DNA of 64,000 nt from Somniosus microcephalus (taxonomy: Eukaryota), in contig CM126222.1 in the NCBI GenBank assembly GCA_052327205.1, forward strand, positions 35,092,001 through 35,156,000, in the 5' to 3' direction. Positions within the stretch are counted from its first letter, which is position 1. Every line of letters starts with the position of its first letter. The position numbers and the translations under genes were made by a program. The notes under the pieces were generated by a model. It saw nothing but the letters and a program-made list of their open reading frames with translations, did no database searches and had not been told where the DNA came from. This document shows positions 61,914 to 62,312 of the stretch, piece after piece.

Positions 61914-62312
61914 GATCACCTCTGTCCGCTCAGCCAGTTTTAATCACTGTCCAACGGCAAATTTCGCAGTCTATGAAACCTGTCACGTATACCGTGGCCA
62001 CTCCTGTTACATCGACGTCCCAGCAGTCTATGAAACCTGTCACGTATACCATGGCCACTCCTGTTACATCAACGTCCCAGCAGTCTATGAAACCTGTCAC
62101 GTATACCGTGGCCACTCCTGTTACATCAACGTCCCAGCAGTCTATGTTGCAAACTGTTCATGTAGTTCATCAGATACCAGCGGTGTCTGTTACTATGGCT
62201 GGTCTGGCAGCGAACAGCTACACTGTAGCAAACCAGGCAATTGTGACACAGGCTATGGTCAGCCAGGCTAAAATGGAACGGCCAGAAAATGGAGAACATA
62301 AAGAAGTGAAAG
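61914..62312 (+). CDS. FOXK2: FOXK2 exon 7 (399 bp; Ser/Thr-rich, with internal 57-bp triplication)
   Basis: ttctcag|GA acceptor, AAG|gtaaca donor. Encodes [19 protein letters not shown]([19 protein letters not shown])x3[16 protein letters not shown]...ENGEHKEVK. Confidence 0.96.
61966..62146 (+). repeat. Coding tandem repeat, 57 bp x about 3.2
   Basis: Unit gcagtctatgaaacctgtcacgtatacc(g/a)tggccactcctgttacatc(g/a)acgtccca, with ATGs at 61973, 62030, 62087 and 62144. Confidence 0.98.

What the first reader, a model, noticed from the sequence alone, without database searches (positions are those of the whole stretch)
61966..62146. In-frame triplication of a 19-aa Ser/Thr-rich motif in FOXK2 exon 7
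Seen: three nearly identical 57-bp units (only two variable positions) encoding MKPVTYT(V/M)[11 protein letters not shown], adding 38 aa. Recalled: human FOXK2 has one copy ([18 protein letters not shown]). Inference: a recent duplication, probably seeded by the gcagtctatg microhomology at both ends. It multiplies TP sites and Ser/Thr residues in a region where FOXK proteins are phosphorylated or O-GlcNAcylated, and it may be a polymorphic coding VNTR.
Basis: partly seen in the sequence, partly recalled or inferred. Interest (0 to 1): 0.7.

Follow-up and report, generated by a model that had tools for sequence, protein, structure and literature searches.

The report
Shark FOXK2 coding minisatellite expansion
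A shark's gene for the transcription factor FOXK2 carries three in-frame copies of a 19-amino-acid stretch that is single in the other vertebrate sequences checked; extra copies are present in spliced RNA, likely arose by slippage at a short pre-existing repeat, likely vary in number between animals, and likely change the protein's behaviour little.

Summary
Exon 7 (61914-62312) of a nine-exon shark FOXK2 gene holds three 57-bp units plus a closing 10-bp arm, adding 38 aa. The array shows as a loop in read-derived contigs of two samples (one study), including a spliced RNA run. Four related organisms have one copy and already carry both 10-bp arms, which fits a microhomology-mediated tandem duplication. 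All 186 other FOXK2 proteins counted have one copy. Junction depth in run X1 (3.3x flank or more) exceeds the 2.0x ceiling of any three-copy genotype (simulated P 0.001-0.025), so copy number likely varies (about 4-5 there); whether within or between species is open. 'Recent' is not shown. The O-GlcNAc and phosphorylation rationale is weak: the mapped FOXK2 sites I read lie outside the unit, and one study finds FOXK1 but not FOXK2 O-GlcNAcylated. Against pure neutrality, the unit is a deeply conserved motif. It is a new member of a known kind (coding minisatellite).

The parts
61914..62312 (+). FOXK2 exon 7, 399 nt (285 nt without the two extra units), AG/GT bounded, spliced in RNA
   Evidence: spliced contigs in X11 and X19 continue into exon 8
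61966..62022 (+). Unit 1 (57 bp), begins with the 10-bp arm; private synonymous change at 62014
62023..62079 (+). Unit 2 (57 bp); private change at 62051, Val to Met, a CpG-type transition
62080..62136 (+). Unit 3 (57 bp); identical to the single copy of organisms C, D and F, one change from E, so the inferred ancestral unit
   Evidence: joint 61965-62080, skips 114
62137..62146 (+). Closing 10-bp microhomology arm GCAGTCTATG, also present in single-copy relatives
62060..62109 (+). Unit-to-unit junction contig (50 nt); this sequence can exist only in alleles with two or more copies
   Evidence: listed directly for X3; inferred from depth bins for X1, X2, X11 with residuals of at most 0.05
42626..57398 (+). 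FOXK2 exons 2-6 (tblastn blocks 42626-42817, 45346-45501, 47534-48028 holding two exons and a 147-nt intron, 57207-57398); no insertion against relatives apart from that intron
64000..64000 (+). First base of exon 8, which continues in L002; exon 1 lies in L005 and exon 9 in L003
   Evidence: loose ends at 62312

Best explanation
Exon 7 of this shark's FOXK2 gene holds a three-unit in-frame minisatellite, present in spliced RNA, that likely began as a microhomology-mediated tandem duplication between two pre-existing 10-bp arms, likely still changes copy number, and is likely tolerated with little effect on the protein. Shown: the array, its frame, its presence in DNA and spliced-RNA contigs, and the single-copy state with both arms in relatives. 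Inferred: slippage or flap mis-annealing between the arms, which exist because the protein repeats Gln-Ser-Met 19 codons apart, made two copies; unequal exchange or further slippage between whole units made three or more; two point changes followed. Inferred and untested: the 38 extra residues lengthen a probably disordered C-terminal tail, downstream of the forkhead domain and of the GSK3/CDK serine pair, leave each flanking conserved motif intact, and act at most as a mild modifier.
For: Both arms stand in 4 of 4 single-copy relatives laid (X4, X9, X13, X19; four organism labels, four studies). The arm is the longest exact direct repeat found within exons 2-7. This matches the MTD definition in PMC13167724, which also reports that most such duplications are neutral or nearly so (passages). 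The loop is in 4 of 4 runs of organisms A and B laid. X11 has no depth in the flanking introns and splices to exon 8, so its junction depth comes from RNA. Junction depth over mean flank depth is 3.61 in X1 (3.26-4.05 by either flank) against 1.76, 1.79 and about 1.7 in three runs of sample S2; the window's allele predicts 1.30 and three identical units at most 2.0. Simulated P for X1 under three identical units is 0.0007-0.025. The Met variant is a residue seen at that position in other FOXK2-like proteins.
Against: The unit is strongly conserved (mean column conservation 0.90 over 40 jawed vertebrates), the spacing of its flanking motifs is 24-27 aa in 120 of 120 proteins, and a homologous single motif is in the paralogue FOXK1. 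Length change here seems to be selected against elsewhere, which argues that it is not inert. No single-copy allele was seen in the two carrier samples. Copy numbers above three rest on one run's contig depth, with unknown read length and library bias; no contig spans the array. Both carrier samples come from one study and one may be the assembly's source. Disorder is poorly supported: the AlphaFold2 model of the nearest relative is low in confidence overall (mean pLDDT 41).
Confidence: 0.6

Rival explanations
1. The array is a selected rheostat: it multiplies a conserved Ser/Thr-rich motif (one Thr-Pro site and two S/T-x-x-x-S/T pairs per unit) and so would change phosphorylation, O-GlcNAcylation or partner binding of FOXK2, in the way proposed for the PER3 VNTR.
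For: Motif conservation 0.90; single copy and near-fixed spacing in all other proteins counted; no reversion to one copy in two samples; coding MTDs are generally depleted by selection (PMC13167724); FOXK1 O-GlcNAcylation is multi-site and maps C-terminal to residue 455 (PMC12219458); FOXK2 is an OGT substrate under oxidative conditions according to a review (PMC12569812).
Against: No site named in the passages read falls in human residues 447-465: GSK3 S415/S419 in mouse (my mapping: human S424/S428), CDK S368/S423, AKT S398, SUMO K527/K633. Human FOXK2 was not O-GlcNAcylated in cells or in vitro in PMC12219458. One of only two changes in the array alters an amino acid. There are no population or functional data.
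Confidence: 0.2
2. The array is an old, fixed three-unit duplication of this lineage; the higher depth in X1 is library or assembler noise, or only a fixed difference between two sister species.
For: Two private changes suggest time since expansion. Sample S2 fits three-unit genotypes (best fit for X3 if its depth of 3 is three long reads: two three-unit alleles). X1 and X2 carry different organism labels. With doubled dispersion P rises to 0.01-0.025.
Against: X1 rejects the window's own genotype in every setting (0 of 1500 simulations) and three identical units at P of 0.025 or less. Three libraries of S2 agree within 0.1x, so the measure seems stable. X1 shares the window's base at 62350 while S2 does not.
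Confidence: 0.17
3. The triplication is an assembly artefact.
For: No laid contig spans the whole array; one carrier sample may be the assembly's source.
Against: The junction sequence is in read-derived contigs of two samples and in RNA. Genotypes of one or two units fit X3 far worse than three-unit ones. The locus is single in G000.
Confidence: 0.02

Closest known systems
Microhomology-mediated tandem duplication, MTD (PMC13167724, passages read; PMC8639346, search listing only)
   Same: A single-copy segment flanked by short identical arms is duplicated head to tail and expands further; coding cases tend to have longer arms (10 bp here).
   Different: Here the ancestral state is read from related species, not from a population; reversion to one copy was not seen; the host is a shark transcription-factor exon.
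Human PER3 coding VNTR (PMC5579000, passages read)
   Same: In-frame repeats in a regulatory protein, 4 or 5 copies, each with potential kinase sites; the unit is of similar size (54 bp, recalled, not from a call).
   Different: PER3 is a proven within-species polymorphism with phenotype associations; here variation is inferred from depth in one run, and no site or phenotype is shown. The FOXK2 unit duplicates a motif conserved across jawed vertebrates.
Vertebrate FOXK2 (for example UniProt Q01167; Pristiophorus and Heterodontus FOXK2)
   Same: FHA and forkhead domains, nine exons; exon 7 matches P0124 and P0132 at 94 of 95 aligned residues outside the insertion.
   Different: Three copies of the motif instead of one; unique among the proteins examined.

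Membership tests
FOXK2 orthologues | FHA plus forkhead domain gene whose best matches are FOXK2, distinct from FOXK1 | tested here: met
   Best hits are elasmobranch FOXK2 with PF00498 and PF00250; nine exons at 83-100% identity to P0124 outside introns and the insertion; a separate FOXK1-like gene lies on C11.
Microhomology-mediated tandem duplication | Ancestral single-copy segment flanked by microhomology arms | tested here: met
   4 of 4 single-copy relatives align without differences over both arms.
Microhomology-mediated tandem duplication | Head-to-tail copies with one arm at each junction | tested here: met
   Arms at 61966, 62023, 62080 and 62137.
Microhomology-mediated tandem duplication | Reversible, with several copy-number states | tested here: inconclusive
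   Four or more units inferred for X1 from depth; no one-copy allele seen in carriers.
Microhomology-mediated tandem duplication | Formation through flap or Okazaki-fragment mis-annealing | not testable with these tools
   Mechanism from yeast work in PMC13167724; slippage or unequal exchange would leave the same product.
Coding VNTR (PER3 type) | In-frame minisatellite in a transcribed exon | tested here: met
   57 bp = 19 codons, open frame; loop in spliced run X11.
Coding VNTR (PER3 type) | Length polymorphism within one species | tested here: inconclusive
   S1 and S2 differ in junction depth but carry different organism labels, and no read spans the array.
Coding VNTR (PER3 type) | Copy number changes modification or function of the protein | not testable with these tools
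   No experiment possible; literature sites lie outside the unit.

The most novel reading that the evidence does not exclude
One shark lineage has turned a motif conserved since before the FOXK1/FOXK2 split into a copy-number-variable array (3 to about 5 units) that tunes FOXK2, for instance by giving it the multi-site O-GlcNAc or GSK3 input otherwise typical of FOXK1. It would be a natural allelic series that reveals what this unexplained conserved motif does in a regulator of glycolysis and autophagy.
Probability: 0.15. Interest if true: 0.7.

Novelty: new member of a known kind. Interest (0 to 1): 0.36.

Why it matters
It is a clean vertebrate example of a coding minisatellite caught with its single-copy ancestor and seeding arms still visible in relatives. 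It points to a conserved FOXK2 motif (human 447-465) for which I found no assigned function in the passages read, and it supplies natural length variants to test. It could also serve as a length marker for this shark lineage. If the extra copies are neutral, it is only a curiosity of one gene.

Tried and rejected
AlphaFold2 on the nearest relative P0124 with a 40-sequence alignment gave mean pLDDT 41 with even the folded domains weak; it is not used as evidence of disorder. The apparent 50-aa insertion at 47534-48028 in tblastn is an ordinary 147-nt GT-AG intron. Three short hits scored two motif copies under a loose pattern, but the second match is the unrelated downstream NTYTVA stretch. No run was on record as RNA in the listing; X11 and X19 were judged RNA from their spliced contigs. 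Absolute dating with the epaulette-shark rate (PMC10587355, passages) was not attempted: two changes, one at a CpG, give too wide an interval. The supplement of PMC13423809 lists FOXK2 among proteins but showed no sites in the rows returned (files cut when stored, one file unreadable). Earlier scan notes: none near the locus; those returned do not bear on it.

Full report
Observation. The repeat is as described. Tandem Repeats Finder reports 61966-62146, period 57, 3.2 copies, 97% matches, no indels. The three units and the closing GCAGTCTATG arm are in register. Two positions vary: 62014, a synonymous TCG/TCA change in unit 1, and 62051, GTG to ATG (Val to Met) in unit 2. The frame is open. 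The exon runs 61914-62312 between AG and GT.

Gene. The best protein hits are elasmobranch FOXK2. tblastn of eight shark and ray proteins against the window and six neighbouring stretches finds nine exons: exon 1 in L005, exons 2-7 in the window, exon 8 from window base 64000 into L002, exon 9 in L003. So 'exon 7' is right. Outside the insertion the exon matches Pristiophorus (P0124) and Heterodontus (P0132) at 94 of 95 residues, and exons 8 and 9 match Pristiophorus fully; the host is therefore a shark, most likely a squalomorph (inference). The exon is single in G000. A FOXK1-like paralogue on C11 has one homologous motif.

Is the repeat general? No. In the best 120 of 474 long hits, all 120 have one motif and the flanking motifs lie 24-27 aa apart, against 63 here. 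With cluster members added, 186 of 186 stored proteins other than the query have one copy; these include 23 named cartilaginous fish species and human FOXK2, where the unit is residues 447-465. Of 119 short hits, 107 have one motif, 9 begin inside or after it, and 3 score a second loose match that is not a duplication. The other 354 long hits were not seen.

Is it real? I laid 8 of the 20 runs listed. All are assembled contigs, not raw reads. In X1 (organism A) and X2, X3, X11 (organism B, one sample) the flanking contigs stop at 61995 and resume at 62117, as a 31-mer graph must do at a tandem loop. For X3 the two loop contigs are listed directly: 62080-62146 and the unit-to-unit junction 62060-62109. 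For X1, X2 and X11 the same two contigs explain four depth bins with residuals of at most 0.05. X11 has no depth in the flanking intron bins and its contig continues from 62312 into exon 8, so the array is in spliced RNA. Both carrier samples are from one study, and one may be the assembly's source. In X4, X9, X13 and X19 (organisms C, D, E, F; four studies) one contig skips exactly 114 nt. C and E differ from the window by about 4% in the upstream intron.

Origin. The single copy of C, D and F equals unit 3 (E differs at one base), and all four keep both 10-bp arms. The arm is the longest exact direct repeat found within exons 2-7. It reflects the repeated Gln-Ser-Met of many shark FOXK2 proteins, while catsharks and most rays have Gln-Pro-Met at the second place. 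This is the anatomy of a microhomology-mediated tandem duplication as defined in PMC13167724 (passages read). The enzymatic route is not testable here. Units 1 and 2 each carry one private change, 2 in 171 nt (95% interval 0.14-4.2%), similar to the intronic branch length since the split from relatives, 3 in 211 nt (0.29-4.2%). The array is lineage-restricted, but it is not shown to be recent.

Copy number. Junction depth relative to the flanks cannot exceed n-1 for n units; the window's allele predicts 1.30. Sample S2 gives 1.76 (X2), 1.79 (X11) and about 1.7 (X3), which fits three-unit or three/four-unit genotypes. X1 gives 3.61 (3.26-4.05 by either flank). Using the conservative flank, read-sampling simulations (1500 per setting; 100 or 150 nt reads; one- or two-fold dispersion; nine genotypes) reject the window's genotype for X1 in every setting and three identical units at P 0.0007-0.025, while four- and five-unit genotypes fit the junction depth. 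Read lengths and library biases are unknown, and the tool warns that contig depth is a poor copy-number measure, so this is probable rather than shown. A and B are different labels with flanks nearly identical to the window, so the difference may be within or between species.

Function. The unit is not a loose linker: mean column conservation is 0.90 across 40 jawed vertebrates, like the flanking motifs (0.91) and above the rest of the exon (0.81). Each unit adds eight Ser/Thr and one Thr-Pro. But the sites named in the passages I read lie elsewhere: GSK3-type S415/S419 in mouse FoxK2 (PMC6450906, passages; I map these to human S424/S428, about 19 residues upstream of the unit), CDK S368/S423 and SUMO K527/K633 (PMC9650603, passages), AKT S398 (PMC13660766, passages). 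PMC12219458 (one results section read) finds FOXK1 but not FOXK2 O-GlcNAcylated; a review (PMC12569812, passages) cites FOXK2 O-GlcNAcylation by oxidised OGT without a site. The structure model was uninformative. I commit to a tolerated, near-neutral expansion (0.6) over a selected rheostat (0.2). The motif's conservation is the main evidence against my reading.

Novelty. Searches for FOXK2 with shark (13 of 14 papers listed) and forkhead box K2 with tandem repeat (10 of 11 listed) showed nothing on this repeat in titles or abstract openings; I saw listings only. Subscription papers and bioRxiv supplements are not covered, and a shark genome paper could list the gene in a table I could not see. 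The class is well known (MTD; coding VNTRs such as PER3, PMC5579000, passages). Verdict: real, transcribed, lineage-restricted, probably variable, function untested; new member of a known kind; interest 0.36.

Noticed in passing
window 62376-62712: A 337-bp element with terminal inverted repeats (CAGGAA...TTCCTG) and TA on both sides, like a Tc1/mariner-type MITE, 64 bp downstream of exon 7. It is absent at this site in organisms C, D and E (loose ends at 62375). All 40 scored of 2926 candidates in G000 are full length, 96-98% identical apart from itself, and three older copies lie in the window near 11917-12239, 13139-13430 and 24608-24925. This looks like a young, large family.
   Followed up: partly
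G000:C12:55443306-55443668 (L012) and G000:C8:39782060-39782338 (L013): Two dispersed partial copies of FOXK2 exon 1 (about 358 bp, 95.5% and 93.0% identical) that do not continue into exon 2; they may be captured or truncated fragments.
   Followed up: partly
window 61807-61817 and 62350: The window has one more G in the intronic G run than X1, X2 and X3. At 62350 the window and X1 have G, while X2, X3, X4, X9 and X13 have A.
   Followed up: no
window 47684-47830: The 147-nt intron between exons 4 and 5 is a multiple of three and lies in one open frame with both exons (open frame of 185 aa), so retention would not shift the frame; no RNA evidence was sought.
   Followed up: no
G000:C11:20879152-20999148 (part in L031): FOXK1-like paralogue; its exon 7 equivalent has a single homologous motif and no duplication.
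   Followed up: partly
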